From Trichoplax sp. H2 (Eukaryota), in contig NOWV01000010.1 in assembly GCA_003344405.1 (NCBI GenBank), positions 496,001-560,000 on the forward strand: a stretch of DNA of 64,000 nucleotides. Direction: 5' to 3'. A model generated the notes under the pieces. That model did no database searches and was not told where the DNA came from. It saw only the letters and a list, made by a program, of their open reading frames with translations. The position numbers were made by a program, and so were the translations under genes. Shown here piece after piece: positions 899 through 63,633 of this stretch (its first letter is position 1; each line of letters begins with the position of its first letter).

Positions 899-1450
899 GT
901 GCTAATTAGCTCAACTTGCAAGTTTACACAGCATTGGATGAAGTCATTGCTTGATTTAGTCAGTCTTACACTATCAAGAACTTCCATTACAAGCCACTAC
1001 CTAGAAGATAATTCTCATCGTACAGGCAAGGCAAACATTTTATAACTAATACTACTTCCTCAACATAGCCCCATTCCATTAAATCGATTTGGCCCATTTT
1101 CCACGCTCATCTTGAAGACTTTTCCTTCTACTTTCATCTCAGCTATCATTTTTTTCTCCCTTGATCGTTTTTATCCAATTTGAAAAAGTACTGAATTAGA
1201 AAATCGTCTTCATAATCTAAGTTTTTTTTCCTTTGGTTACTTCCTCCTCAAATCTTCAAATTTGTGCGTGTGTGTTAGTGCGCGCTTGTTGCATCCAAAT
1301 TCCTTTTTATTTCTATACCTAAACTTGTTGACAACACCTTACTAAGCATTTCAAAAGATATAAACTATCCCGTCAAATAGCGTTTTTTCTCCTGCTTTTA
1401 TATAAGTCTATTCATATTGGTTGACTCTTGATCCCTTTGATTTCGTGCCG

Positions 1451-4400
1451 ATGATGGTAGAAAAAATGCCTTTTACCGCTTATGTTGTCTTAGCCATGAC
1501 GATAGTCTGGGCTACCACCTGTAACCATGTTGCCTTGTCGGCTTCGGTCAGAAATAATATACCTAAAGCTGGCGACAAGAACGCTCTTGGTGGTAAACTT
1601 GCAAATATGCCATTATTTCGTACATTGGATACTGATAACAGTGAAACTACCACAGATCAAAAAGATAAAACTGATGCAAAGGACGATGACAGCCTCCTTT
1701 CAGATCTTAGCAAAATCAATGTAACGCAATTTCGTATCGATAGAATTAAAGCTAAGATTCTACGTAAAATACGCTTAACGGAACCTCCCAAAGTTGGTGA
1801 CGACTTACGTGATCGGGTAGTACCGAAACAAATTTTTAATTTAAACTATCAAGTTGAAGAGTCTCGTCACGATCCTGAAAATATGGATGAAACTGAATTC
1901 TACGGCAAAACAACTCAATTATTCGTTTTTGGTGAACACGGTAAGCCAAAAAATGATTTACGAGCATTTTTATACGCGTTACTTTCATTACTTATAGCTT
2001 CTCTCGCTGTTTTATCTCTAAATGCTGCAAATTGAGAAAATTAGCACAACATCACTTACGTCTATAGATGCGAGTATGTATATGTCATACAGTACGTACA
2101 GTAGATAAAGTTATAAATGTTGCCCTTGACATTTAATACCATACGCATACGTACACATATAGGTTATAATGCTAATTTCAACCTAAACACTTTGCATACC
2201 AACGTACATGGGCAATATATGGAATAATTAAATTAAAAAATGGAATACTGTAGACATTTTATAGCATCTATTATTGTATTTCAACTTCGATAGAGATATG
2301 GATAACCATCAAATATTAAATCAATTTCATAAAGCTTCCTTTTTTACTTTCTGATTATTTTTTTCCGTATCTAATTACCGATTAATCTCTTGCGTTGAAA
2401 CGATTACCGATTCAAAGTGACAACTAATAAGATTAATATTGAAATAGATAGTTCAATGCCGTGCCCAATCATTTTAACCTTATGAATAATCTATTATTGA
2501 TTCATAACATTTTAAATTAGTAAAACAATACACCACTGTTGTCTGTTTTTGTCTTCTGATAGGCTACAATCGAAATATTTATATGACGATAATTACGTTA
2601 TAGTTAAGTAGTTTCAAGAAAGGGAGGATATTAAAACAAAGGTTATTACTGTAATATAAGATTAAAACTATGTAGATCTTAACTTTTACTAACAAAATAC
2701 GTCTTAAAATAATGAAATCGATTTCATATGTTAAATTAATAGTCATGCACTAGTAGAGTTAACAGTTTGGAATGAGTTTCGATCAATTTTCTATTTACCT
2801 TCCATTGTGGCATTCATATACAGGAAAAGGAACAATTTCATTGATTTTTTACAGTACTTTTAGATAGCGGAAAGTAAAAAAATTACGCATGCAAGTTTTT
2901 TTGTTTTCGCAACGTTAGCCACAATATGGAGATTACAACTCAGAGGAGATGGCGCCAGTGGTTGTTACTGTTTTTTTAATTTTCAACATGTCAATACCAC
3001 ATCCTATTTTTTTATGCAATACCTAACTAGCAAGTATAATTGTTATTAATCCAACTTAACCCTTTTCATTCAATCTATACAATTTCGCCATTTAAAGTTA
3101 GCGATTAGTACTGTTTCCACTAGCTGAATTGATATTTTCAGCGTCGTAGCACGGACATCATATTCATATACGGATTCCTTACTTTATCCTTCGTTGTTGT
3201 CCTTTCCTCACTTCATAGTTATTAATGATCATCATCAATTAATAGTATTAGAGTCAGGTCGTAAGTTATTAAAATTAAAATGATTTCTTAGCATCACTGA
3301 AGCATTGATGTTCATTGACTTCTTTGTTTCACCTTCTCCTACTGATATCTCGATCACATTTCGAGTTACAGCTACGATAGTTGTGTTTCAATGTGAAGTT
3401 ATTTGAATCGTGTTACACGAGTTAGTTTGTACTTCTAGGCAAGAATAATATTTTAATCTTGAGATAACTTTATTCCATGATACTAATATCATGATTGTAT
3501 AGGGTACCAGCTCACATGTCTAAAGATAATCCGATTAAATGGTTTATTTATCAAGTTGAAATAGTTTACTGTAAATGCCGACTGAATTTTTTATGACATC
3601 TTTTAACGTATACGGAGAATGAAACAATTCTTTTAATTGACAGTCAGGACAAATAAGTTAATCAATTAGACATTTTCACCCTCGTGCTATGGAATTCCTG
3701 ATTTTTCCCCACCGATAATGACTTTTAAGAATCCTTCCAATCATTAATCCGTTCTTTTATGCTAATAGACGTTTTATAATCTGACTATACAGTAAATTTT
3801 AATCAAATAACACCTATGATCTTTTTCCCACGTATAATATTTTGTATTGGTTGAGGCAACAAGTAAAACTTTATGTTAATATTTGTTATCAATTTAGTGT
3901 ATTGAATTTTTTGTAATTGACACCGTTGGCATGTTTTTTAGATGAATACTTCTTTAATTTATCAAATTAACGACGTTATTATAATAGAATCAATGTAAGC
4001 GAGCCTCTATTACTCGCCCTCTCCGCTGGAGATGGCGAACAGTGACAGTCTATCTCTTTTTTTTGCTTTTGTCATCATAATAGTCATTAAACAAAACAAC
4101 AACAACAACAAATATGATGAAATTAAATGATGCAAATTTGGATCCAAATGGCATAAAAAAATGAATTAAATGCTTTAATTAAGTTAAACTCGATGTGATA
4201 TTGGTAGTTTAAGGTTCTAAGTTGAATAATTAACATTCCATACCACACCACATGTTGTTCTAATGTTCTATAGTTAAATCTTGATTACGCTGTTATTAAT
4301 CAAAACATTATTCGAGTGGCACCACCAAATTAGCGGTACTAAAAGGTTAAGATGGCGCACGACTATTGCATCTGATCTACTTACTGTAATGGAACTTCCT

Positions 4401-5810
4401 TATTCTATTCTTCATTTTCATACTAGCATATTACCCACATTTCTCTTTATTATAAGAGCATACAGAGCGGAATCAAAAGAGTTTCACCTTAAAAAAATAA
4501 CTTGTTGAATACAGTTCGCAAATAGGATACTAGTAGAGCATACTTTAGTACTTATTTCTTTATTACACAGATAGCCATAGCAAGTTCTAAGCTAAACAGA
4601 TTAAGTGAAATTCTTCTTTATGCTATCTTTATTTTTATTTTTTTGAATCGGAGTAGATAAAATTCATTAGTCAATAGTTTGATAAAGTATAATGAGGCCA
4701 GTGGCGCCTTAACTTAATTGACAGACAATTTAATTCATAGTTGATACTTCACTTCATTATCCCTCATCCTTTTAAATACTAAATTGCTATTTAGAATCAT
4801 TCTAAAAAATTTTTGACGTCATAAACTACGACAAACGATGACTTATTTTGACTACATATAATTATTTCAATTATGCAATGAAAATATGTTTAAAAATGAT
4901 ATTTTGCGCTATAACAAATTTAACTGGAACATTCGTTATTGTAAAATACTAATTAAATCTAAACAACATTGGCTTAAGAGCTGCTATTTTTACCTTTAGA
5001 CTAAATTTTTCTTGCTTTCTATTTATCTATTGATATCCTTTAGTAACAAAACACTGCAAGAAACATGCCTGTTTCGATTTTATATTCTCTCATCATCTCA
5101 TGGAAAAGTTTATCTATTCAGCGGAATTATGGTTCTATCCAGTAACCAGCGAGAGCGAATTATTGAAGGTCTACCGTAATGATGCGAATGGTAAAACTTT
5201 TATCACATCCCGCTATTCCAATATCTCAAGATATAACGATGGATGGATTAACATCGATGTAACGTCAGTAGTTAAAAATTGGTTAAATGGTAATGAAGGT
5301 CTGTTAAATAGTATCAAGATTTCCTGCAAAACATGCAAAGACAAGGAAATCCCCTTTATTGGCACTACTGGTGCATTAAAACCGTTTTTATCTATTAACA
5401 CAGCTAAGCCAAAATCAAATCCAAAATCGGGAATAGAGAATTTCTTTAAAAGCAGTAGCTTTAAAAGCAATAACTTTAAAAGCAGTCCAGTAAATGCATG
5501 TCGTAAACAATCAACTCATTGCTGCGTCGAAGAATTCTATATTAACTTTAAAGAAATTGGTTGGTCAGATTGGATTATATCACCTCAAGGCTATACTGCT
5601 AATTATTGTCGTGGCACATGTTTTGGTATGGATAGTTTTGGCTATCGGTTGAAAATTTTACAAAAGCTGTCAGAAGAAGATAATTCGCTCATTCCTTGCT
5701 GTTCACCCGGCAAAATGTCCTCGTTAACCATCATTTATCAAGATAGTAACGGCTATTTACACTCCGTTATTTTACCGAATATGAGAGTAGAACAGTGTCA
5801 ATGTTTCTAG
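1451..5810 (+). CDS. TGF-beta superfamily ligand, activin/myostatin/TGF-beta-type (9-Cys), 2 exons, ~418 aa
   Basis: Exon 1 is 1451-1940 (hydrophobic signal peptide MMVEKMPFTAYVVLAMTIVWATTC; prodomain helix RIDRIKAKILRKIRLTEPP; donor G|GTAAG). Exon 2 is 5044-5810 (TTTAG acceptor, phase 1, in frame). Mature domain: C..CC..F.EIGW.DWIISP.GY.ANYC.G.C..PCCSP.KMS...LPNM.VEQCQC. The extra N-terminal Cys pair is typical of the activin/TGF-beta/GDF8 branch. Confidence 0.93.
5445..5489 (+). repeat. Coding 15-bp tandem repeat x3 (FKSSS FKSNN FKSSP)
   Basis: tttaaaagcagtagc / tttaaaagcaataac / tttaaaagcagtcca, immediately before the mature domain. Confidence 0.85.
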
Positions 5811-12300: not shown

Positions 12301-15300
12301 AAAAATATATTAAAATACCAGTCCATTAGGACTTCGGCCATTTTTCTCATATCATCATGATCGCCACCTTTCACTTCGATTAAATGCGGCATATAATTAT
12401 CATCGTTGGGATCGACGGTTACAAGTAGGCATCTGTAAAACATAACAGGTAGAGGGTTAGTAGTTAAAAAGTGAGATAAATTACTTCTAAAAGAACGGGT
12501 GACACTTTGCATTTAAGTAAATGCTTTACATAGATACAGCTGATCGCGTATAACGTACTTAATTATAACTCCTTTCTTTATTCTTAATCTAATCCAATGG
12601 CATCCCTGTGAGCCGTCAGATTCCCAATAAGAAGATTGATTACCATCTGTCAACGCATCCTTGTCTTCTTCCATCTTACATAAAGCAATTGTTTATGATT
12701 TATTATCAATCCAAGCAACACTTACAAAATATTCGGCCTTTTACAATGCATCAAATTTTTGATCGGAAAGGTCAAAGTTCTAAATTTACCGAAGAAACAG
12801 CAATACTTTCAACATAGTCTTTTAGATTTCCATATGCAGTGTTCCCATTATCCATATTTTCTGATAAATAAGTAGCTAATAATTTATCGTGTTCTAATTT
12901 CCAATTTTTAGGTGGAATACTAAGTTTGTGTTCTAATTCCACATCACTTGGTGGTAAGGTGAAAGGATATAATAACTGTAACGAATATGCATTTTCAACG
13001 GCAATTTCCCACCTGTTACAATATCAGAATAACCAAAGTACTTTTAAATTAAGAGTTCATATATCTACCATAAAGCAGCATTTAGGTAACATTTAAAATA
13101 TGATTTAGAGAAGAGAAGCGCAATATGTATACTTATATACTAAAGTCTCTTAATAAATCTATACAGCTTTGTTAAGAACATGGTATCTTATAGAAACACT
13201 TGAGGTTAAAATCTTAATCTGTAAACATATAAAGATAGCAACAGTTATCACAACATTAGTTGATCCACTCTAGACGATGTAATCACAAGTGCTTTAAATG
13301 CAAAAATAAGCAATGTCTGTTTTCGAAGTTTTCATATAGTCTTCATGAGTGATTTTTACGAAATATTGATCGTAAATACAGCATTTATACATAGACGTTC
13401 AGAAGAATGTTTACTACATCAACACTGTTAAAGCTGAAAATTTAGATTTATATTACAAAATACGTACATATTATTGTATTGGATTTAAAAATATTTGTAT
13501 AGTTGATCCCTGTTTGGCTGTAAATATCTGACTAGACTAAAACAATATGGCTTTTGCCATTTGTATTAAAGTCTCAGCTAATCATATATAGCTGAAAGTA
13601 TACGGTATTGGGAAGATTGATGCAATTGCAATTAACTTTCTTAAGTTTGTAATGACAGTAGCCCAACTACCACAATACGAATACTCATTATTACGCAAGG
13701 GATGCTGAATAAGAATAATTAAAGCGATATAGCTAGTTATCTTGCAAATTGATAGACACTGGCGTAGTTACTAGCTTTAGGAACTGATCATATTCGAATT
13801 TAATTGTCTAATAATGTGTAATAATAAAAAGTAGATAGATGGCAATTTAGAATGTCTTGAAGAAAATAGCATAATATTAATAGTAGTGAACTACATGTTA
13901 TAACGCGGGTAATACTATACATACGATATTTAAGATATACGAAATATTTATTCACGGAATTCAAGTCTGATGATCCTAGTCTTTTACTAGAATAATTAAT
14001 TACTAAGAACTAGCCTATATATTTACCTTTCATGACATGAAAAGGAAAAATGATCTAAATTGAACTATTTAGTCGAATTTCACAATATCTAAGCACACAA
14101 AATTCAGTACAGTACATGTGCTAGTGCACCATTGGATATGTGTGATTACTTTAATAGCTGCGTGGATCTTAAGATGGTTTATTTAACACGATATGCAATG
14201 TTAAACTGGGAATTGAGACGTAAAATCAAATGATACACTGTACTGTACTGCATGAATGTCCAGTACTATCAGGGTATGGATTAATCCATGACTAGAGACT
14301 TTTAATATTTTATGTTCCATACCGAATGGAATATATTTTTAGATTTGCTATTGGCTTACCCGTTTCGTTCGAGTCTACAAGCTTCAGTACTATCAGGTAG
14401 TGCCGAATAATCAAGCTGCAACGGAAAACCATTTCCTTTAGGTCTGCTATTGCTGTCAGCATGAAAATTATTACTTGATGAAACAAGGATCCAACCCTCG
14501 TGTTCCTTTCCAAAGTACTGATGATCTTGTCCTGCCTATCAATTATTTTGATCAATCATGTCAAGTATTCATTTCTCACTGCAGTTATTATAAGATCGCA
14601 TGACGCTCGTGACCATTTCTAAGCCATCACAACACTAGCATTATTTGTTTATTGCGATTTGTAGTATTAAGCACAAACAATTACTACCATCACATATAGT
14701 ACAGTACAGTACAGTAATTAACTGTGCAAGAAATGATTGTCGATTTACAGTTGGTATTGAGGTATTTGCGATTTATCAAAGAATTTTACACCAAATACTA
14801 AATCCATCTTGTAGTTATAATACAACTGATCCATCAACATTTTGGGTATTAGCTGAAATGATTACTATGGTACTAGTTATTATTTCTTACTAAACGTATA
14901 TTACTGTATACTGGTCTGGCAATAAAGGATGCGCATAGACAATTACATAGTACCGGTGTTGGCCGATTTGAGAATCAACTGATATCTATCAACATTAGAA
15001 TCAAGATAGTATTGCATCCATTTAAGGTTGGCAACATGAACACTAGTGGCTATGCAGTAGTAGAGTTTGTATTATTTTAACTCACTGTATTATAGCATAC
15101 AAGTAAGACAATTTTACAGTTCGGTTTGATGTTCAAAAGATGCATCAAACATTGATATTGGCAAGTATGGAATGGATTGTTGATTTCACGCAATCAATCA
15201 TTTATATAAGCTAGAAAATAATATTCTGCCCATCGAGTCATGGTCCCCAAAATACAAGCTAACGGAACTCACTTGACTTATCTTACGCCATGTTCCTTCG

Positions 15301-15563
15301 TTGGTACACCATTCGTTACCATATAGATAAATTGGTTGTTTAAGATTACCAACGTTAAGTTTGATTAATAATTTTGAAGTTGCAGTTGCTTCCTCAAAGA
15401 CCGATATACAGTCTCCCTTGTAATGCTTGATTTGATACGGCAATAATGTAGGCACATAGCAGAACCCCTTAGGAAGAGGCCTCGCATTTTCAATGCTATC
15501 AATACAATCAACTAGACAGCGGATTTTGCCTAATTTTTTACGATAATGGTCATATCCAAACAT
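9332..15563 (-). CDS. HECTD3: E3 ubiquitin ligase HECTD3 (DOC/APC10 domain + HECT domain), multi-exon
   Basis: Exon 1 (15273-15563) [39 protein letters not shown] resembles the HECTD3 N-terminus. DOC motif [28 protein letters not shown] at ~12560-12660. HECT segments [43 protein letters not shown] and catalytic [15 protein letters not shown]-terminus [23 protein letters not shown] (stop 9332-9334). Confidence 0.93.
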
Positions 15564-15729
15564 AATTTAGCAATATTTCAATGTTCAATTAGTTATCTAA
15601 GGTAAGGCCCCAGCCTAAAATTGAAAATGCTAGTAACCTTTAGAAAGTTTGTCAACCACCACAGGCCACCGGTCACTGGTCTAAGGCGTAATGAATCCAG
15701 TGCATAGCGAAAGCTGTCATCTCTGTACC

Positions 15730-16730
15730 ACTGTCTAGTACAGTACAGGACATTGCGACGGTACAATATTGTACAGTGTACAGTACACTTTATGAATTCA
15801 CGTACGGTAGAGTACAGTACACAGTACTGTATCATAAGAAGATTGTTTACCTTTTACCATCTACAGTCTACAGTACATTGTACAGTACAGTATCGTACTG
15901 TACAGTACGGTACAATATACAGTACTGTAGTACTGTACACTGTACAATTGTACTGTACACTGTACACTCACTGTACTGTACAGTACAGTACAGTACAGTA
16001 CACTAGTGCAGTGTACTGTATAGTACTGTAAAATCTGTTCCAAAACCCCCAATTTTGATACAAAAATCCGTATTAGCCAAGCCAGTCCCGTCATATCCTG
16101 TTGTCCACCTGTACACTGTACAGTACGTACAGTACACGTGTACGGTACAATGTACTGTACATTACACGATGCACGATACAATGTACTGTGTGGTACAAGT
16201 GTACTGTACAGTACTGTACATTGTACTGTCGATAAAATAAAAAAATTCAAAATATGTTTGCGTATTATACTGTACAGTACAATCAGTACAGTAGTAAATC
16301 CACTACAGTAATTGAAGTACAGTTATTTCCATATTAGATCCATTATTCACATCAACTAGCACGTTACAGATACATTCACGGTTCACCAAGTCTTCATCGA
16401 CGGATCCATATGACATTGGACGTAACTTTGTGCCCCTAAAATTCATCTACAAATCAGCCGAAATACAGTACTGTACTGTATAGTAAGTATACAGTGTATA
16501 CTGTACTCAGTGTACAGTACAACACTGTATCAACACTTTGCAAATAGACTCAGTCTATCACAGTCCACGTGTACAGTACTGTACAGTGTACAGTAGAATG
16601 TACAGTACTGTAGACTCTCTTTCTGCCGCCCATCGATTCATAATGGTTGACTTCATTACAGTACTGGTTCTATACTGTACAGTACACCGTATATATACCG
16701 TACAGTATACATAGTATACAGTACAGTATA
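15730..16730. repeat. TACAG/CTGTA-GTAC low-complexity motif island in the HECTD3/HIAT1 divergent intergenic region
   Basis: Dozens of TACAGTAC, GTACTGTA and TGTACA units on both strands, for example 15861-16030, 16110-16230 and 16465-16730. Confidence 0.9.
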
Positions 16731-17422
16731 TAGTAGGTCAATTACCCTTAAAGAATGGACACGGTATCGTACTAGTACAGAGTACGTTCGCAAAAGAGTG
16801 ACGTACTGCAGTAGGAGGTTGACATTGACAGTCACTTTTGACGCAGGCGATAACGAAAGACATTCTATCGTGTGTGATGGTGGCAGTAAATCTTCATTGA
16901 TTTCAATTGGATTGGAAGTTCTCTCAAGCATTATTTTACCCGTCTGCAAACATTAGCCATTGCCATTTCGCTGGTGGTTCAACTTTATGACGATTGGCAT
17001 TGCCATTAAGGGAGATTTGTCGTTGCTATTACAGCTATCCGATCTGCTCATTACCCGCATTAGCCCCAAGAGTAGGAAAACTTTCTACAATCGATTGGCA
17101 GAAGACTACGCTTATTGAATCAATCGATCTATATAGCACAACGAAAATGACAATCTGAAAATGGTTCTAATTCATTATTGACCGGCCAAAACGCCAACAT
17201 AGTCATCAGGAGAAAGGAATTGTTAACATTAGTCTTTTATGCATACGTGCAATACAATACAAATACAATTTGAATTCGTCTTACAAAAATCCTTTCCACG
17301 CGTATTGTGGTGCAACATTTTGCATTACCTCTACAATCAACGTCGGCTACTTAATTGAATAATACTGTACTACCTGCATACTTTCATGTTGCAGCCATTC
17401 TATTGGATTCCTCGATCAAATC

Positions 17423-20400
17423 ATGGATAATTCGATCCTAGCGGTAAATTGAAAGTAGTTCTAGCCAAATAATCTTGTATTGCCTTTTACGCCATAATAC
17501 ACTGGCTATGCTCTACTGTGTTGAACATCTTGCTGTATTGCAATCAATCAAATGACTGTAATGACTCATGTACAGGACTGGAAAGTAGAGTAGAGTAGGG
17601 TAGAGTACATTACAGTTGGTTTCGTTGTTAATGAAAGTTATTAAACACAGCCAATGATTGTTCATGGACAATTTACAAAGTTGTCAATAATAAATGAATC
17701 AAGTTCGTCGCTCAACAGCATAAATTATTCCAATAAGTTGATCGAGTTAGGGTTAAATGATCAACATTAACTTTATCTGATATACAGCATAACTACAGAT
17801 CAGTATAATTACAACTTGCCAATGGACTCAACTGGTGATGATAATTCCATAATATTGAAGTATAAATATTATGGAATTATGCTGATTAATTAAACAGCAA
17901 CGTTAATCGAATCGTCACTACATCATGAATAACAAATTAACCGGCTGTTGAATACTCTATTTTAATTAACTCAACTGCATGTGAAAACTATAAACAACTG
18001 CTCACTAAATATCGTAATAGATTGGATAATCACTTCACTTTGTTGAACTTTCCCATTTGATATTGTAAACAAATTAAAAGATGCAAGTATGTCAATGTGA
18101 AACAGATGACATTACAGATGCGAGCACCATACTTAGTAAAAATGAATAATGTTATGTAGGCGTATATGGCAGATGGATGTACTAATTGTATAATGTGGAC
18201 GATATCGACTACAATCATGTTAACGTAGAACGTTTACAACCATACGGCAATATTATTATGATCGATTATAATGATCAGTCCAATACCTAATATTACAAGA
18301 ACTGATTGAGAATCGCGTCAATATTTTAAAAATTATTATGCTTTACTGGTTGGATTATGGAAGTAATCATTTATTTCTATTTTAATTCATTTTTTTTTTA
18401 GGGTATCGATAAACCAAGTGTCTATCATGCTGCCATTATAATATTTTTAGAATTTTTCTCCTGGGGGTTGCTGACATCGCCGTTAATTAAGGTATTTCTA
18501 TATAAAAGTCTATGCAAAAGAAGTACAAAAATACAACTATCCCCGATAAATGTAACAAAGCGTCCGTTATAATTCAATCCTTACTCAATCACAGATAGCA
18601 TTCAACTTACAGATCATTAGGCGATGAAATGTTACTCTATATGTGTGCATACTATCGTATTAAGATATGTGTATAGTTAGGGAGTATCCTTCTTTCGTCT
18701 TGCACTCGTACAACGTTGAATAACGTGTTTGTACTATACCATGTCAACTCCGTTGTTTGCGACTTTGCATAGAATTAATTTCAAATTGTAATGTTTCTGT
18801 ATATGTTTTATTATATCCGTGACATTACCCTATTTTGCAAATAGTTATTAAATTAAATTAATACGTTTATTGCAATTTCTTTTCTTGCATCTCTAATTTT
18901 AGCTACTGGCTGAAACATTTCCTAAATATACATTTCTCATCAATGGAATTATTCAAGGCATCAAGGTATGAAGAAATATTGCAATCTAAGGATTAGCGTT
19001 ACTTTTTCGAACGCCGGAACCAATGCCGTACAAAAAATAATCATGGTTTGCGGAGCCGCAATAGATTAGTTTTATAGTAATTGTTTGATCGTTTATTGTA
19101 TTTCGCTTACTATAGCATTTTGATTTACTTTCATACCTAGTGTAAAGCGTCCATATCTTGCAGCTTAAATGTTACTATATTACTTTCCCCATACAATCTG
19201 AAACTGCAAATCCACCGTTGCTACTATGTGTTTATAAAATTTTAAAATTATCATAACGTTCTCAACATATAAAAGACTAGTTTATGGAACTCTGAGAAAG
19301 CAAAATTGTTTCTCACGCCTATAATGATAATCTTGATTGCATGAGATCATTATAATTGTTGACACGCTCTCAACTCCATTACAAAAAATGTAACCTAAAA
19401 TTGAACGAAAGAAAATTTCTTTGACAACACTGTACTCGTTAATACTACCGTACAATATGAAAGTCTAAGTTGAATAACTTAATGTACGAATAAAAATTGC
19501 AAACGGTCGTCTTTTAGAAATTATTTTAAATAATTTTACAATATACATTTCTAATCTTAATAAATTGTTACTTCATTTTAGGGAATACTATCATTCTTTA
19601 GTTCTCCTCTAATTGGTAGTCTGTCGGATTCAGTAGGGAGGAAACCTTTTTTATTACTAACGGTTTTTTGTACGTGCATCCCAATACCTGTTATGTGGTT
19701 TGATGCGTTGTAAGTAATCATTACTACTAATCGAATTTATTCTCCTAATTTGGTAACTGGAGTACAAATCTTTACTAATCGAATCAGTATTATTTTCGAC
19801 ATAAATCAAAAATTATAATTTTTTCTATTCCATTGGTATGCGAACGTAATAGTATATGCTTACAATGACCTTTAAATTATAGGTCTTACTTTGTGGTCTT
19901 TACACTCTCTGGTATGTTCTCTGTAACTTATTCTATTGTATTTGCCTATGTTGCTGATATATCTCCTACTGAAGAAAGGAGCTCTTCATATGGCTTGGTT
20001 AGTAACCTTTCATGATTAAATAATTGCTTTTTCTCAATTTTCTATGCTATATACTGTATAGCAACTTTGATGTTTAATCATATTAAGTGGTAACAACATT
20101 AATTTTAAACATGGAACTGAATAAACGATTATAGAAGCATTTATTGCACGTATTGATGTTTTAACAGGTAGTTAAAATTACTTAAATCAATGGTACTTTT
20201 GTAGGTTTCAGCAACTTTTGCTGCCAGTTTGATTATCAGCCCGGCACTTGGTACCTATATAAGTGATAAATACAGCGACGATGTGGTTGTCTTCATAGCA
20301 ACTGCTATCTCTTTCCTAGATGTTTTATTTATATTAGTTATGGTACCGGAATCTCTATCATCGGAACTAACAACTGAAATATCATGGAAGAAGGCTGATC

Positions 20401-23185: not shown

Positions 23186-23193
23186 TATAAAAG
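23186..23193 (+). promoter_or_regulatory. TATA box of the vitellogenin-like gene
   Basis: TATAAAAG 100 bp upstream of the signal-peptide ATG at 23286. Confidence 0.55.
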
Positions 23194-36109: not shown

Positions 36110-36485
36110 TTTAGCCACATAAGCTCAGCACTGATTTGCAGCCTAGGCTAGAGTTTATACTTTCTAATCCAACAGAGCTCCACAGCCTGCTGCCATTTAG
36201 CTTCATTGGCAGCTCTAGCTATTAAGCAATCAACGAGGCTTGCATCAGCCTTCGTTGTTGTCACCCATATGAACTTCTATCGAGATTCTGCCTCAAATGT
36301 ATGTTACAGTATGAGCAATTGAGCGTGAATTGCGCATGTAAGGTATCGTACAAGTGCACTTCGTACCGTATTGTACACTGTGGACTTACCGTACTGTACT
36401 GTACTGCTACAGACATTACGACACTTACTGTTACTATAGAGATAGCGCTCAAATGACTGTGACTACAGATTTAGTATAGAAATTG

Positions 36486-36905
36486 GATGTCCAGTTTCTG
36501 TCTAGTGTTCCGTCCGTATCATCGATTCCAATGCGATATACTGTACTGTCAGAACTACTGACACCAGCATCAGTTAATGTCCAGTTTCTGTCTGGTGTTC
36601 CGTCCGGACCATCGATTCCGATGCGATATAGTGTACTGTCAGAACTACTGACACCAGCATCACTTGATGTCCAGTTTCTGTCTGATGTTCCGTCCGTATC
36701 ATCGATTACAATGCGATATACTGTCAGAACTACTGACACCAGCATCAGTTGATGTCCATTTTCTGTCTGGTGTTCCGTCCGTACCATCGATTACAATGCA
36801 ATATACTGTACAGTACTGTCAGAACTCAGAACTACTGTCTGGTGTTCCGTCCGTACCATCGATTCCAATGCGATATACTGTCAGAACTACTGACACCAGC
36901 ATCAA
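36486..36905. repeat. ~90-bp tandem repeat, ~4.7 copies, between RMI2 and HDAC3
   Basis: Unit gatgtccagtttctgtctggtgttccgtccgtaccatcgattccaatgcgatatactgtactgtcagaactactgacaccagcatcagtt starts at 36486, 36576, 36666 and 36751, with a partial copy at ~36835. Copies differ by a few substitutions and by the number of TACTG units. Confidence 0.95.
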
Positions 36906-36937
36906 TTGCTTCCCGCTCGACCTGCAAGCCAAGCAAA

Positions 36938-39900
36938 ATGGGCCCCAAACGCGATGTCATGTATTTCTATGATCCAGAAGTGGGTAATTTCCATTATGGT
37001 AAGTTCAGTTAATGATTTCCACTAGTTGCTGCTAGCTGCTAGGATGAAATACTTGTTTCTGTATAAAAATAAAAATTATCAAAACCACTGATAGTATTAC
37101 TGTACAGTACACTGGTGGATGGAATCTGTCAAGAAGCAAGACAGAATATTGCAATTGAACAATATTCGACTTGATGCCAACGACAATAATGATATAATAA
37201 ATAGGAATAGTAAATAATATTAATAATTCGTGCTTTTATGTATATCGACAGGCAAAGGACATCCCATGAAACCGCATAGGATATCTTTAACCAACAGTTT
37301 AGTCTTAAGTTTTGGATTACACAAGAAAATGACTGTAAGTTTCATTAGAGCATGGCCTGATCGATTCGGATCTGCCTTATAAATGCTGTCATATTCTTCA
37401 TTACACTAGCCTTATTAGCTTACGTATTCACCTTGATAAAACGGAATATAACGTAGTAAGATGATTTTTGATATTCAAATACAGATGTTTCGGTCTATCC
37501 CAGCTTCCGATTTCAACTTGTGCCGTTTTCATGCATACGATTATATAGAATTTCTTAAAAAGTAAGATAATCCAATGAAAAGTTACTTGTAATCGAAATG
37601 GATAGGCTATGGATCGCTATTTAGACGCATTCTTGCTGATAAGCTTAACTTTATTACAGGATCACACCCGCAAATATAAGAGAATTTCCTTATAGTACCT
37701 TGAACACGTATAACGTTGGCGATGATTGGTAATGATGATCATTTCTCTAGCTGTTAATAACACACAGTATAGTATAATAGGAAGTTATAAAAATAATGTA
37801 CTAGGATATCGCTATTGAACTCGTTGTAAAGTATCCAGTAAGCTGATATATGCGCTCAGTTTATCTTTGAATAGTACACAATATTCCATCATATATGCAG
37901 TTTACCATTGCATCAGGGACTTCTAGGAGAATTTCTTGTAGCAGTCCCTGATTGTATGCTATAATGTTGATCAACGTTACTATTCTATTCATAATACAGT
38001 AAACCCTGCTAGTATAGTTATACTGTGCAATACAATCATGATTGATACCATGCATTATAAGAATTCATTTATGGAGAAACGGACGGTAATGTATCGCCAT
38101 AAATTTTTTTGCTAGACATTTGCGATCATTAAGGCCACTATCAATACCAGTTTAGGTTCTAGAGATTATTTTAATGAAACAAACAATTTCATCAATTAAT
38201 TAAGCTTAATTTTCTTGTATTATCGAAATGAAATTGCCTCATAGTCCTGTTTTTGGTGGCCTTTTTGATTTTTGTGCTATGTATACTGGAGCATCGCTTC
38301 AAGGAGCAACGAAAATAAATCATCAGGTAAGTTCATCCATACGATATCTTGGTACACTTGATAAAGTAAAAGTGTGCTCACCGAACTAGTAAAATAAGAT
38401 TTTTGTTTTAAAAATACGAGAAATACTGGGGTAGGATTCCTTTAACATCTTTTTATGCTCACTTCTACAACTAGGTCACTCTTATTATACTAATTCTAAT
38501 GATACCGGCAACTTATCAATCTGCCCTTTTTTACAGGAATGTGACATCGCTATTAATTGGTCAGGGGGATTGCACCATGCAAAAAAGAGAGAAGTAAACA
38601 ATCTTTTAACGTAGATAAATGATAATCATAGGATGTTTTACTTTCGTATATGATGGGCCAAGGCTCGGCGTGAAATCTATTGATGTATTAATCATTTATA
38701 AGCAACTTCGGAAATCATACATTTATCAATACAACTACAGACTGTAGCTATAGTCGTTCAATTGTAATTTAAGGATCATATTTAGTTTACTTTCTAACTA
38801 TTCTTTGCATTCTAATTCTCATTCATGCGAAAGGCCTCTGGATTCTGTTATGTCAACGATATTGTGGTTGCAATATTGGAACTGCTAAAGTAAGCAATTC
38901 TTGTTTACGAGTACAGTATCACTCTGTTTTAATATTACCAAGATAACATTATATCAAGTAAAATTACAAGATCTGATTATAAATTTCTGCTTTAATACAG
39001 AATCATTTCTTTCTGTAATCATTAAAATTACATTCTAACATACTGTATCATTGTATACCAAACAATTTCTCCATGCAGGTATCATGCCCGAGTATTATAC
39101 ATCGATATAGATGTTCATCATGGTGATGGCGTTCAGGTAAATTTTTTGTTTAAGCCTATCGTTACATTTTATGCAGTTCTATTATCACATGTTATTAAAA
39201 TTTTGAGACGAACGCGGAATAACTGAGTTATATGACTTGGAATACTTTTAGTGTTATGCTTTATCCTTTAGTATATTATAAATAATATATTAAGTACGCG
39301 TATTTAATTTTTTCTGTCTAATTGATTATACAAAGTTGTTAGATATCTCGATGGTATTGAACGATCTACTATATGTTATAATTATTTACAGAATTAGGAA
39401 TGTGATGCTAATCGTCTCACTTTACTGCAACAATACACTGATATACAGCATTATTCAATATTTAGGAAGCGTTTTATCTAACTGATCGTGTTATGACTGT
39501 ATCTTTTCACAAGTATGGAGATCAATTCTTTCCTGGAACAGGTAATTAAGTAGTTCAGGATTATCTAGAGGGATACTTTCATTCTATATGCAGGAACATA
39601 CTTATATATTAAAAGATCTAGTATTTATTAAATTTGTAAATGTACGCTTTTTGTGTTTTAACATCGAACGAACAGGTGATATGTATGAAATTGGAACTGA
39701 TAGAGGAAAATACTACTCTATTAATGTGCCATTGAAAGATGGCATTGACGACCATGGTAGTAAAAGAATAAAGGCTAAATTCTTTAATATCTAAGATAGC
39801 AAATCAATTTAGTAATCTTTTTTTTGCATTATCAGGCTATTTATATGTTTTTAAGCCCGTCATAGAAGCTGTAATTCAACATTACCAACCATCTAGTATT

Positions 39901-44700: not shown

Positions 44701-47700
44701 ATTACCAGATTCCAGTGACAAATTTTGCTTCTGCAAAAGCTCAATTTTATTATGAAGATTCTGGAATTTAAAACCAATATCTGTTGTAGGGTCATTTACA
44801 ATACTTTCGACATTGTTATAACGATCTAACAACTCCTTATTAGATGTTAGCTCCTCCTGCAGATTAGCAACTTGATTTTCAAGATCACGGCATTTATTTG
44901 TTAACTCTTTCTTGTCGACTGCTAGGTCATGTATTTCTTGCTCCAATCTTTCTACCCTTTCCTCTTCTATTGATTGATCATTTTGAGATGTGGGAGTCAT
45001 TAGCTCTTGAATTGCTGTCATAATAACCTCTTGTACGGACTGCTCCAACTCCATAATAACTTTAATATAACCTAGTATTAGAAAAATATATCACTTTCAG
45101 ACGGACAAGTTCATTGGTGAAATATTAATCATCAATTCATATCCATGACGATGAGTTTGATAAAACATTATAGAACGATGGTGATTACATAATTCAAATT
45201 ACGTAGCCAACCTATGTGTTAATTAATTTCTAGCTAGCTATCTAATTTACGAAAAATTTTAAATGACACCATTAAAGTATATACTACTACGTATACGTAT
45301 GTCTTAATTAAGGGCTACCTATCATACCTTCTCGATTATTACAGAAGAACGCGCAACCAAGAATGAGCTGTAACATTTTACCTAATTCTTCTTCATCACA
45401 ATTAATAGCTATAATTGAAACAAAGAGTCTCACTTTAAATATTTATCTTAAGCTATTTTAAAAATTTTGTCAAGCTCTGTTAAACCAACCAATTTTTTCT
45501 ACATTTGGCAAGGACAGATTGCTTAAGTCTTGTTTTAATGTCTAATTAAAGGAAGAAATGGGTAGTTTACGAATTGCACTATGCCATTGACATTAGTAGA
45601 AGAACAGTAATAAATAAATAATGATAAAATACATCATTGTATGATGACATATGTTGCATTGATTATAGATATGAACTTAACACTTTACATTATACTACTG
45701 TTTCTCAATAAAACGAACTGTTTAGTGCGTTCACATTTATAACTTGCCTCGTGATAGTAGTATTCTATTCCCCGCAGGACTTTCTTTAAATTGCTAACCT
45801 ACATAATTAGGTAAATAAATGATAAGTATTAGGAAATGGCTATTGAGTTAGTTTATTAATAAAATTGGTTGTCAATATTGATTTAACAGTAGTGATAGCA
45901 TATTGTATCAGTGGGTTAATAAAGATGAGTTTGTTGTAATACTTCATTAGGTATTTTTTAGATACTAGTATCGTGACAAGAAAAGTACGACAACAAGTAT
46001 TTTTTAAATATTTTACATGTATAAATACTACATCGCGCTAAGAGAGTTATACAGTATTTTAACCTGTCAGTGAAAGGGATAATTGATCGAATTAATATAT
46101 ACTACCTCATCTAAGATTAAAAAACGTTAGAGGGATAACTATGTAGTATTCTGGAATCTAATCAAGTTAAAAGTAACTAACAAGAGATCTAATTGTAAAT
46201 TATATCTACATTTCATCATAATAATATCCAGCTATAAGTTCTATAAGTTAATAATTCTAATTATCGGATAACGATAAAATATCGCAATTGCTGAAGTATT
46301 CTCTTAAGAGTACTATATCAGTTATATATTTATGCTGTGGTATGTATACTGTATCATTGTACCTTACATTGAAATTGTAAGACTAGTGAAGATATCGTAA
46401 TTACTGCAAATAAACATATCACGTTGGTGAATCAGGCAGTGCGCTACAGCTTAAAACTCTGAAGACTAATAATCCAACCCGTGAATGGCACATACAGTAA
46501 TTGGCTTTAGTATTATTTAGTTATTCATTCACTATCTATATTAAATGACTTTAAGTTCAAGCTTTATACTATATTATCAATGAATTAAAAAATTGTTGCA
46601 TCAAATCAAATAATCTTCTAAATTGTCTACCAGAAAAGTAGGCACTGCATTGTACATAAAAGTCATAGCAAAATCTTACCTTTAACCGCCAATGGTTAGC
46701 ATCACGCTTGATTCTACTAAGCCATTCTCCACTAAATACAGCAGAAGCTCTAATCAAGCATATCATAAAATTAATAAATGGGTCGTCATATCATTTATTT
46801 TGGCTTATTAGGAGATACACGTATCCGTGTAAGACCTTTGAGACGATATTTAGATAAAATACAATTATTCTCCAGGTGTCAGCGACTAATCTATTTTCTC
46901 TTACTATCCTACATTCTATTTAGATTGTTACATCTATGCAAATTATATAGACTACACAAGTATTACTTCCTCATTATTGTATATGCGCATATAGTTTTAT
47001 TCTCAGTATAAAATATTAAAGAGCAACAACATTAACGAAATCGTATTCATGTTCAATGATTTAATTCAACTGATAACTTAGACTTTATTCTTATCAACTG
47101 TTCTAATAACATTGGTATTATATATATATATATAAATTTATTCAATCTGGTTAAACTAACAAATAGTTTATTCAGCTAGTGTTGTACTTTACAAGTGATG
47201 TTGCAAGTTGTAAATGTTACCATTTTCTCGGTATTGCTTACATCATCATCATTGTACTGTAATCTCTCACAGCAAATATTAAAATGAGAGTAAGAAAAGC
47301 GTGCAAAGCAATTTCAATTGGCCAAAGTTGAGTATCTCCCAATTTTATAATCATATTCTGCCGCACTACTACTGTATCCGTCCGTTTTAATCTACTTATT
47401 GTCCACTACAGTACTGCCATCTCGACTGGCTACGCGATGATCAGCTTCGCTATTGCACATCTACAGTACTATTGATCGCTCTTGTTATATAAATAAAAAT
47501 GCATTTTGGGGACTGTACTTATAGCATTTGGTACGTTATTATTGGTATGAATTTGGTATGACAGAATTGTCGATCTTGACTAAATTCATTGAACTACTTG
47601 TAACGATTGGATGATCATGACAAGTATATGACTACTATAAAAACATTTGCTTGCAGTACAGTATTACTAAAGTTAGAATAAAGCGCTCACTGTCCAAGTA

Positions 47701-48099: not shown

Positions 48100-48970
48100 A
48101 AGATCAGTTACTGTACTGTACTAGAAACGTTTATAGTAACGCGTCAAGCCCTTTGACCGTTGTCTCTTATTAATTACAGCTGTTGAAGTGTCCAACTGTC
48201 CATACAGGCGTCCGAGTGTGTCATGTCAGTCTACACTCTACAGTACAGTACAGTTTAGTACAGTGTACAGTACTGTAATATGTACTGTACTGTACTATAC
48301 TACTGTACTATAAATCACGTGACTATCGTGAGTAACGTCCACTAGACCAGTTAAGTTGGATACAAACTTGACTGATCTACTGGGCGCTGCTCGATACGTT
48401 TGCACCATTACGTACACTACTGTACGTACATTGTATGAATAAAAGATAGTAATACTGTACTCAGTAGTCAGTGGCCCGGTGCTGTAGTGTACTCAGTGGA
48501 TATGACGGTACTGGATCGGTGGACATTGTACAGAGCTAAAGTCAAAAGTCTACTGTAAAATCCATATCTACTAAAAATGGCCATACTCGTACTCTTTCCA
48601 CTGTTGCAGCAGCATACCACTTCTGTAGACTACCGTCACTTCTAAAAAGGAAAGAGAGGGATAACCACCGGCCATTCAATATCCCCAAAATGACGGAGCT
48701 GGCCATTGTGCGAGTCATCTCAAGTGAACTGTATGTATATCGAGCACGATACACAGTTGAAGTTGACCGTTACGCGAGTGTCATCCTGATCAGCTAGCTG
48801 CTTGGGTTGGCTTTGCACTGTACAGTATACTGTACTGTAGCGTAGGTACTGTACACTGTAGAGTACTGTACTGTAGAATGGCCGACCAAGCCCAGCCCGC
48901 CCATTCTACTGTACTGTACACAGTGCAGTACAGTGTACAGTAGCTTACCAATGGTGTGTTTCATGTCAGA
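48100..48970. repeat. TACAG/CTGTA-GTAC motif island upstream of HOOK
   Basis: Clusters at 48109-48123, 48234-48310, 48410-48465 and 48817-48945, built from the same units as 15730-16730. Confidence 0.85.
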
Positions 48971-56196: not shown

Positions 56197-56298
56197 ATTA
56201 AACCTGTTGCAAACCGTATCAGTGTTGTGGCATGAAGAAAATGTTTTGATCTGATCTGTGGCAGGTAGTTAAAATTTACACTCTCTTTATAATTTTCA

Positions 56299-56311
56299 CC
56301 CTTTATACTTT
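56299..56311 (-). promoter_or_regulatory. Candidate TATA box for the divergent LLTP paralog
   Basis: The minus strand reads AAGTATAAAGGG ~105 bp upstream of the ATG at 56196, the same spacing as in the vitellogenin-like gene. Confidence 0.4.
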
Positions 56312-63495: not shown

Positions 63496-63633
63496 TTAAA
63501 CAACGATTTAACTAGTACAATCTTAATGATAGCTTATTATTAAATAGTTCCTACCACGCTAACTTAAACAACAATTTATCTAGTACAATCTTAATGATAG
63601 CTTATTATTAAATAGTTCCTACGGCGCTAACTT
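63496..63633. repeat. 68-bp direct tandem duplication
   Basis: ttaaacaac(g/a)attta(a/t)ctagtacaatcttaatgatagcttattattaaatagttcctac(ca/gg)cgctaac at 63496 and 63564. Confidence 0.9.

What the first reader, a model, noticed from the sequence alone, without database searches (positions are those of the whole stretch)
15730..16730. TACAG/GTAC motif islands mark housekeeping promoters and are not seen at TATA promoters: candidate promoter-identity system
Seen in sequence: dense TACAGTAC/GTACTGTA arrays lie between divergent HECTD3 and HIAT1, between divergent RMI2 and HDAC3 (36345-36440 and inside the repeat), and upstream of HOOK (48100-48950). Sparser copies occur in the first introns (14100-14270, 14695-14715, 37097-37112, 47365-47520), so density falls with distance from the start. 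No such island precedes the TGF-beta, vitellogenin-like or LLTP-paralog genes, which have TATA boxes instead. Inference: this is a lineage-specific analogue of a CpG island, meaning a multivalent binding platform or nucleosome/looping signal that defines housekeeping promoters, perhaps seeded by a transposon. I recall placozoan chromatin work linking promoter hubs to a motif and Mutator TIRs, but I cannot confirm it is this motif.
Basis: partly seen in the sequence, partly recalled or inferred. Interest (0 to 1): 0.72.

Follow-up and report, generated by a model that had tools for sequence, protein, structure and literature searches.

The report
Known Trichoplax ACAGT housekeeping-promoter repeat islands
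Dense clusters of a five-base repeat sit in front of most housekeeping genes tested in this placozoan (Trichoplax) genome and in front of few receptor or homeobox genes; they are the ACAGT repeat published in 2010 and likely act as landing pads for a still unidentified DNA-binding protein.

Summary
15730-16730 holds 59 TACAG/CTGTA copies; 100 shuffles never exceed 10 per kb. It lies between divergent HECTD3-like and MFS genes. The HOOK island is strong; the RMI2/HDAC one is weak.

Islands precede 32 of 37 proteasome/CCT/LSM loci versus 1 of 43 homeobox/GPCR loci (p=6e-16). The TATA claim is only half supported: island promoters are TATA-poor (1 of 32), but GPCRs are at background (4 of 19).

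The genome is Trichoplax. The motif is the (ACAGT)n upstream microsatellite of Wang et al. 2010, which a 2026 model links to insulation. This scan noted it repeatedly on other contigs. Identity with Kim 2025's loop-anchor/Mutator motif is unresolved.

I found no Mutator evidence: target-site duplications at chance level, little shared sequence, no transposase match. Added detail: the array is a strand-symmetric TA(CWG-TA)n with near-random A/T order, which plain slippage does not explain. Its unit equals the Sleeping Beauty excision footprint. The binder is unknown. Verdict: already known, interest low.

The parts
15735..16735 (.). Main island: several clusters of TA(CWG-TA)n / (GTACW)n separated by motif-poor spacers, at the divergent HECTD3-like/MFS promoter
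15272..15628 (-). First exon of HECTD3-like E3 ligase as covered by an RNA contig; island starts about 100 bp upstream
16350..17442 (+). First exon (long 5' UTR) of an MFS transporter as covered by the longest RNA contig; includes the right-hand clusters of the island
36345..36440 (.). Weak motif cluster between divergent RMI2 (-) and histone deacetylase (+) genes
36486..36907 (+). About 90-bp tandem repeat upstream of the HDAC start codon; five copies differ by 0, 1 or 2 extra pentamer units at one site
48100..48950 (.). Island upstream of HOOK (-): two clusters around a motif-poorer core; one-sided promoter (the neighbour is read as the 3' part of the LLTP paralogue, inferred)
14100..14270 (.). 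Sparse intronic copies, HECTD3-like gene
14695..14715 (.). Short perfect TACAG run, intron of HECTD3-like gene
37097..37112 (.). Intronic copies in HDAC intron 1; one DNA run lacks one 5-bp unit
47365..47520 (.). Sparse intronic copies, HOOK gene
1399..1406 (+). Strict TATA match 52 bp before the inferred first ATG of the island-less TGF-beta gene (contrast case)
23186..23193 (+). Strict TATA match 100 bp before the inferred first ATG of the island-less vitellogenin-like gene (contrast case)
56285..56307 (-). Two TATAAAG words (not strict consensus) before the inferred first ATG of the island-less LLTP paralogue (contrast case)

Best explanation
These islands are the Trichoplax (ACAGT)n promoter repeat, a strand-symmetric array of GTAC palindromes every five bases that sits upstream of housekeeping genes and likely works as a many-site landing pad for an unidentified DNA-binding protein, which would keep TATA-poor promoters open and insulated and likely joins them into promoter hubs. 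Shown here: the arrays, their grammar, their position, their bias to housekeeping genes, and their rapid length change between near-identical copies. From the literature: the motif lies within 1 kb (54%) or 5 kb (85%) upstream of genes; a network trained on Micro-C predicts a role in chromatin folding; placozoan housekeeping promoters form hubs that carry a motif. Inferred: a protein reads the array, copy number rather than exact sequence matters, and the array causes rather than follows the open state.
For: Enrichment far beyond shuffles. Position at gene starts by RNA contigs. 32 of 37 versus 1 of 43, Fisher p=5.9e-16; also an island before rpl32 (13 per 500 bp). Grammar is tight: of neighbouring GTAC pairs, 737 are 5 bp apart and 146 are 7 bp apart; the linker is A/T in 690 and C/G in 47; A 640 versus T 626. 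Away from islands TACAGTA is 2.3-fold and TACCGTA 1.7-fold over a Markov-3 expectation, while the other near-neighbour 7-mers tested are 0.8-1.2, so the word is discrete and palindromic, as a dimer site would be. Orientation-free arrays suit divergent promoters. Wang 2010, Chimaera and Kim 2025 report the association, the predicted folding effect and the hubs.
Against: No binding, accessibility or contact data could be examined, and no binder is identified. Arrays change fast between near-identical copies (9 substitutions in 1072 aligned bases but 12 indels, 11 of them in or at the arrays), which fits neutral turnover equally well. The gradient reaching kilobases into introns suggests a mutational process. 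Strength varies widely (RMI2/HDAC weak; 5 of 37 housekeeping loci below threshold), and a POU-type homeobox gene has an island. Chimaera attributes the Kim transposon motif to ACGG, not ACAGT.
Confidence: 0.55

Rival explanations
1. Neutral by-product: open housekeeping promoters accumulate the units through a mutational process (fold-back template switching at GTAC palindromes plus slippage and deletion between direct repeats). The islands record promoter openness but do nothing.
For: High indel turnover between near-identical copies, including a clean 10-bp tandem duplication and 19-bp and 5-bp deletions in other runs. Strong fold-back potential (z = -8.2). Near-random A/T order of neighbouring units (253 same, 196 different), as inversions would give. 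Distance gradient.
Against: Sharp class contrast. A predicted effect on contact maps when motifs are inserted in silico (PMC12817080). If the Kim motif is this one, it is kept at orthologous promoters across four placozoans.
Confidence: 0.22
2. Stacked Tc1/mariner/pogo-type excision footprints: repeated insertion into TA and excision leaves TA-CAG-TA or TA-CTG-TA; open promoters take most hits; slippage then amplifies the scars, which may have been co-opted.
For: The unit equals the two canonical Sleeping Beauty footprints (bioRxiv 659086). Both TAs are needed for enrichment, and A and T are equally frequent. The 9-mers that join the two element ends (TACACTGTA 67, TACAGTGTA 68) far outnumber the alternatives that dinucleotide slippage would also give (TACACAGTA 2, TACTGTGTA 5). 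One copy pair differs by a single CAGTA inside a (TA)4 run. One copy of the 90-bp repeat carries an inverted unit that is not a tandem duplicate.
Against: No donor found: 3 DDE_1 and 2 DDE_3 matches, none with convincing terminal inverted repeats within 1.5 kb, one broken. Wang 2010 found 0.13% TEs and none active. The non-canonical footprint TACATA/TATGTA is barely above background (69 versus about 53; ratio 0.98 away from islands). Most indels between copies are not single 5-bp insertions. A palindromic binding site or template switching explains the same asymmetries.
Confidence: 0.1
3. The DNA acts through its own physical properties (hairpin or cruciform extrusion under transcription-driven supercoiling, or TA steps every half turn that disfavour nucleosomes), with no dedicated binder.
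For: Single-strand fold -75 kcal/mol, z = -8.2, 0 of 200 shuffles as stable. Period 5 is about half a helical turn. Poly(A/T) tracts, the usual intrinsic signal (my own knowledge), are depleted in islands (0.89 versus 1.57 per kb).
Against: Any palindromic repeat folds, so this is not independent evidence. Structure alone would not require one specific word, yet neighbouring words are not enriched.
Confidence: 0.08
4. The clusters are terminal inverted repeats of Mutator elements inserted at, or domesticated in, promoters (the reading of Kim et al. 2025 for their motif).
For: Kim et al. report Mutator TIRs that contain their loop-anchor motif. 46 of 61 islands match themselves in inverted orientation. 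Wang 2010 lists 6 MuDR fragments.
Against: 8-bp direct repeats flank 1 of 61 islands, against 1.9% for mismatched flanks. With the motif masked only 18 of 1830 island pairs share sequence, many being overlapping or duplicated loci, and self-inverted hits fall to 6. No match for PF10551 or PF00872 (controls rang) or PF20700 (control blank). A self-complementary array looks like a TIR pair by construction, so structure-based TE calls here may be artefacts (inference).
Confidence: 0.05

Closest known systems
(ACAGT)n microsatellite of Trichoplax adhaerens (Wang, Zhang, Meyer, Bao 2010, Biol Direct 5:18, PMC2871265; parts 1-3 of 4 of the text read)
   Same: Same genus, same pentamer, same upstream position (54% within 1 kb, 85% within 5 kb), enrichment at translation genes, proposed as a transcription-factor binding site.
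   Different: That paper counted perfect repeats only. Here the unit is described as a degenerate, strand-symmetric TA(CWG-TA)n island of about 0.8 kb (median 809 bp, 28 copies), with a housekeeping versus homeobox/GPCR contrast and low TATA content.
Repeating ACAGT motif found by the Chimaera network in T. adhaerens (PMC12817080; passages and section 61 read; supplement unreadable)
   Same: Same word, linked in silico to chromatin folding; insulation is predicted at gene starts in this species.
   Different: A model prediction without promoter-class analysis or binder. The paper assigns the transposon-derived motif to ACGG, not ACAGT.
Placozoan GP1 promoter-hub / loop-anchor motif (Kim et al. 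2025, Nature, PMC12221973; section 8 and passages read)
   Same: Housekeeping promoters, about a third of genes, a motif shared by placozoans, an architectural binder proposed.
   Different: The motif is shown only in figures, so identity is untested. Strict ACGG repeats are too rare here (ACGGACGG 15 in 1.05 Mb; CGGACGG upstream of 4 of 37 housekeeping loci) to mark most hubs, which favours but does not prove identity with the ACAGT array. I found no Mutator anatomy.
Vertebrate CpG islands (from my own knowledge)
   Same: Compositional island about 1 kb long at TATA-poor, often divergent housekeeping promoters; GC above background (0.40 versus 0.32).
   Different: Not CpG-rich (o/e 0.76 versus 0.93 overall); defined by one repeated palindrome; no methylation logic shown.
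Sleeping Beauty (Tc1/mariner) excision footprints TACAGTA / TACTGTA (bioRxiv 10.1101/659086, passages read)
   Same: Identical 7-mers, in equal proportion, both TAs required.
   Different: No donor element found; the non-canonical footprint TACATA is not clearly enriched.

Membership tests
Trichoplax (ACAGT)n upstream microsatellite (Wang 2010) | Genome is Trichoplax | tested here: met
   Exact single match to a placozoan rpl32 primer; a G000 protein 99% identical to T. adhaerens TRIADDRAFT_2637; best named hit of the window's HECT exon is T. adhaerens
Trichoplax (ACAGT)n upstream microsatellite (Wang 2010) | Tandem ACAGT pentamer | tested here: met
   TRF period 5, unit TACAG, 15869-16002; ACAGT 10-fold enriched in islands
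Trichoplax (ACAGT)n upstream microsatellite (Wang 2010) | Located within 1-5 kb upstream of genes, enriched at basic cellular genes | tested here: met
   rpl32 locus
Placozoan GP1 loop-anchor motif (Kim 2025) | Motif logo matches | not testable with these tools
   Figure only; supplement searches empty, 2 of 6 files unreadable
Placozoan GP1 loop-anchor motif (Kim 2025) | Overlap with ATAC, H3K4me3 and Micro-C loop anchors | not testable with these tools
   Only assembled contigs of runs were available
Placozoan GP1 loop-anchor motif (Kim 2025) | Marks housekeeping-gene promoters | tested here: met
   32 of 37 versus 1 of 43
Mutator (MULE) element | 8-11 bp target-site duplication at element ends | tested here: not met
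   1 of 61 islands versus 1.9% control; island ends only approximate element ends
Mutator (MULE) element | Copies share family sequence beyond the short motif | tested here: not met
   18 of 1830 masked pairs, many duplicates or overlaps; one 200-bp dispersed repeat at 4 loci
Mutator (MULE) element | MULE transposase encoded in the genome | tested here: inconclusive
   No match for PF10551, PF00872, PF20700; search is exon by exon, assembly may be incomplete, PF20700 control blank; Wang 2010 lists 6 MuDR fragments
CpG island | Raised CpG observed/expected | tested here: not met
   0.76 in islands versus 0.93 overall
Tc1/mariner excision footprints | TA + 3 terminal bases + TA, two forms in similar number | tested here: met
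   A 640, T 626; footprint definition
Tc1/mariner excision footprints | A donor element with matching ends exists | tested here: not met
   5 DDE matches, none with convincing TIRs within 1.5 kb
Tc1/mariner excision footprints | Filled and empty alleles differ by one unit at a lone TA | tested here: inconclusive
   One clean case among 21 indels of the two well-aligned copy pairs; one suggestive case in the 90-bp repeat

The most novel reading that the evidence does not exclude
The islands are stacks of Tc1/mariner/pogo-type excision footprints that placozoans turned into a promoter-identity code, read by one of the genome's immobile CENP-B/pogo-like proteins (L141-L143), which bundles promoters into hubs as fission-yeast CENP-B proteins bundle LTRs into Tf bodies. 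The published Mutator TIR calls would then be artefacts of a self-complementary array.
Probability: 0.07. Interest if true: 0.8.

Novelty: already known. Interest (0 to 1): 0.22.

Why it matters
If functional, this is a simple sequence code for housekeeping promoters and promoter hubs in an early-branching animal, and a clear bait for finding the missing placozoan architectural protein. The motif, its upstream position and a predicted folding role are already in print.

Tried and rejected
Splice-signal strand asymmetry as a cheap way to orient genes beside unselected islands: too weak on genes of known strand (for example vitellogenin-like 65:67), dropped. So the fraction of all islands that lie at 5' ends was not measured; only the gene-to-island direction was tested.

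First TATA scans used wrong start codons for TGF-beta, the vitellogenin-like gene and MFS; redone.

The rule of 8 pentamers per 500 bp within 2.5 kb would wrongly give the vitellogenin-like gene an island, because the count comes from inside the upstream MFS gene. Similar neighbour effects could touch a few loci.

BLAST of the island against the genome found only the dense core, at up to 177 places (lower bound), with no homology in the spacers: not a dispersed element family.

A DMRT-type site (ACAWTGT, recalled consensus) was rejected because the 9-mer centre is C/G (135) rather than A/T (23). Strict (ACGG)n as the island motif was rejected as too rare.

Depth of contig runs was not used, because other loci's repeats pile onto the islands. 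The TGF-beta homologue search gave no placozoan name.

Literature searches found no paper naming a binder or a TATA-versus-island analysis in Trichoplax. The library lacks most subscription papers, and the figures and Supplementary Data 1 of Kim 2025 and the Chimaera supplement could not be seen; they bear on motif identity.

Full report
Observation. The islands are real. TACAG/CTGTA occurs 59 times in 15730-16730 and 32 times in 48100-48950, while 100 dinucleotide-type shuffles of the window reach at most 10 per kb; heptamers total 136 against 15 expected. TRF reports a degenerate period-5 array with unit TACAG at 15869-16002. The RMI2/HDAC cluster is weak (best 500 bp = 7). Across 264 kb of the same contig there are 18 clusters of at least 7 copies per 500 bp, about one per 15 kb.

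Gene context. Pfam on 136 of the window's 143 stop-to-stop ORFs gives TGF-beta (+), HECT (-), MFS (+), vitellogenin-like (+), RMI2 (-), histone deacetylase (+), HOOK (-) and a second Vitellogenin_N gene (-). RNA contigs give CT..AC joints left and GT..AG joints right of the main island, so it is a divergent promoter. The HECT contig starts at 15628 and the MFS contigs at 16350, 16554 and 16837, so the right-hand clusters are partly 5' UTR. Contig ends are not start sites. The HECT gene is HECTD3-like by homologue names. The genome is Trichoplax: a published placozoan rpl32 primer matches once exactly and a G000 protein is 99% identical to a T. adhaerens protein.

Genome-wide test. I located gene families in G000 and fetched about 7 kb upstream and 3 kb downstream of the most 5' Pfam match. 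The sample was 13 proteasome loci (all loci among 23 matches), 10 of 11 CCT-family loci (one lone internal match dropped), 14 of 14 LSM, 23 of 36 homeobox matches and 20 of 147 GPCR matches (one per contig, by score; one contig skipped). At least 8 pentamers per 500 bp within 2.5 kb upstream were found in 12/13, 8/10 and 12/14 (32 of 37) versus 1/23 and 0/20 (1 of 43); Fisher p=5.9e-16. Allowing 7 kb, read from the fixed bins of that table, gives 34 of 37 versus 5 of 43. One housekeeping miss is cut by a contig end. The homeobox exception is a POU-type gene by my reading of its translation. Caveats: anchors are domain matches, not start sites; 'housekeeping' is assigned by family, not by expression; neighbouring genes can donate an island.

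TATA. Strict TATAWAWR lies 52 and 100 bp before the inferred ATGs of TGF-beta and the vitellogenin-like gene; the LLTP paralogue has only TATAAAG. The three island promoters have one strict match between them (16690). Among 32 housekeeping island loci, 1 has a strict TATA in 300 bp around the gene-side edge of the densest 500 bp. The background rate of 0.83/kb predicts about 22%, or about 11% at island composition. GPCRs have one within 300 bp of the ATG in 4 of 19, which is background. So islands are TATA-poor, but 'no island means TATA' is not general on this evidence.

Grammar. I called 61 islands in 1.05 Mb; most come from loci chosen for housekeeping genes and a few are duplicates, so this is not an unbiased set. 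Median length is 809 bp and GC 0.40. Consecutive GTAC cores are 5 bp apart in 737 cases and 7 bp apart in 146; the single-base linker is A/T in 690 and C/G in 47. Written as TA(CNG-TA)n, N is A 640, T 626, G 58, C 49, and neighbouring A/T units are the same in 253 and different in 196 cases. A microsatellite growing only by slippage should give long same-letter runs, and decay by point change should favour G over T (inference), so neither fits alone. The 9-mers TACACTGTA/TACAGTGTA (67/68) outnumber TACACAGTA/TACTGTGTA (2/5), again against dinucleotide slippage. More than 1 kb from islands TACAGTA is still 2.3-fold and TACCGTA 1.7-fold over expectation, while the other near-neighbour 7-mers tested are 0.8-1.2. 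All units are palindromes around one free base, which fits a dimeric binder, fold-back template switching (z = -8.2) or transposon footprints.

Turnover. Near-identical copies placed side by side at assembly gaps (probably two haplotypes; inference) differ by few substitutions but many array indels: 9 substitutions in 1072 bases with 12 indels, and 15 in 738 with 9 indels. These include a tandem 10-bp duplication and one single CAGTA inside a (TA)4 run. In the window, five copies of the 90-bp repeat carry 0, 0, 1, 1 or 2 extra units at one site, one of them inverted, and other runs show 19-bp and 5-bp deletions in arrays. Exact sequence is therefore not conserved; if the array has a function it rests on density.

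Transposon origin. For Mutator: 8-bp flanking duplications in 1 of 61 islands versus 1.9% of mismatched flanks; 18 of 1830 masked pairs share sequence; self-inverted matches drop from 46 to 6 on masking; no match to three Mutator transposase families (one control blank). For Tc1/mariner: the heptamers equal the canonical Sleeping Beauty footprints (idea met in earlier scan notes). But the genome search gave only three intact pogo/CENP-B-like ORFs and two DDE_3 matches, one broken, none with convincing terminal repeats within 1.5 kb, and TACATA/TATGTA is barely enriched. Wang 2010 also found no active elements. The CENP-B-like proteins are candidates for a binder only by analogy to fission-yeast Tf bodies (PMC4981269 passages). 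None has an island of 8 or more per fixed 500-bp bin in the 10 kb fetched, which is weakly against a ubiquitous role.

Comparison with what is known. Wang et al. 2010 (PMC2871265; parts 1-3 of 4 read; lead from earlier scan notes) report ACAGT as 78% of pentanucleotide repeats, 54% within 1 kb and 85% within 5 kb upstream of genes, enriched at translation genes and kinases, and propose a binding-site role. Chimaera (PMC12817080, section 61 and passages; preprint passages) recovers repeating ACAGT and ACGG in T. adhaerens from Micro-C and assigns ACGG to the transposon motif. Kim et al. 2025 (PMC12221973, section 8 and passages) describe housekeeping promoter hubs with a motif in Mutator TIRs, shown only in figures. 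Najle et al. 2023 (PMC10580291, passages) place placozoan regulatory elements near promoters and first introns. One search listed eight earlier notes of this scan on the same feature in other pieces of this genome (92 fit the look-up); they are not independent evidence.

Verdict. A real, well-supported promoter feature, already known. Most likely a multivalent platform for an unknown binder (0.55); rivals are neutral mutational accumulation (0.22), stacked footprints (0.10), intrinsic DNA structure (0.08) and Mutator TIRs (0.05). Interest 0.22.

Noticed in passing
window 36486-36907: About 90-bp tandem repeat (five copies, the last partial) just upstream of the HDAC start codon; copies differ by pentamer units at one site and contain CCGTCCGT, an ACGG-type word.
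   Followed up: partly
L018:1160-3480; L129:9100-10000 with L078:270-1100; L025/L026: Near-identical copies side by side, the first two pairs next to N gaps, probably both haplotypes placed in tandem. 6 of 16 gaps lie within 500 bp of an island although such zones are 11% of the DNA, so islands seem to break the assembly.
   Followed up: partly
L141:1042-2688, L142:859-2115, L143:1396-2673: Three intact pogo/CENP-B-like ORFs (DDE_1 with HTH_Tnp_Tc5, CENP-B_N or HTH_psq) without convincing terminal repeats; probably domesticated. L142 is 99% identical to a T. adhaerens protein and had no other hit at E<=1e-30.
   Followed up: partly
L144:1378-2541; L145:886-1968: A Tc1-like transposase gene broken into two frames, and an intact HTH + DDE_3 ORF without convincing terminal repeats.
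   Followed up: partly
L018, L022, L067, L089: An about 200-bp dispersed repeat (71-79% identity) beside four island loci, ending in a GTCC-rich word; could be an old non-autonomous element or the ACGG-type motif.
   Followed up: no
L129:5050-7237: A POU-type homeobox gene with an island upstream: the one exception among 23 homeobox loci.
   Followed up: partly
islands generally: After masking, GGAC/GTCC words (ACGGAC, CAGTCC, AGGGAC) remain about 5-fold enriched around islands; either decayed units or a second promoter motif.
   Followed up: no
window 1451-5810: TGF-beta family gene whose first exon (1451-1941) is about 3 kb upstream of the exon with the ligand domain; best named relatives are GDF8/inhibin-like at about 31% identity.
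   Followed up: partly
window 16350-17442: The MFS gene seems to have a 5' UTR of up to about 1.07 kb, with the likely start codon only near 17423 (inferred).
   Followed up: no
window 63496-63633 and 51516-51576: A 68-bp tandem duplication and a TCAT-type repeat reported by TRF; not examined.
   Followed up: no
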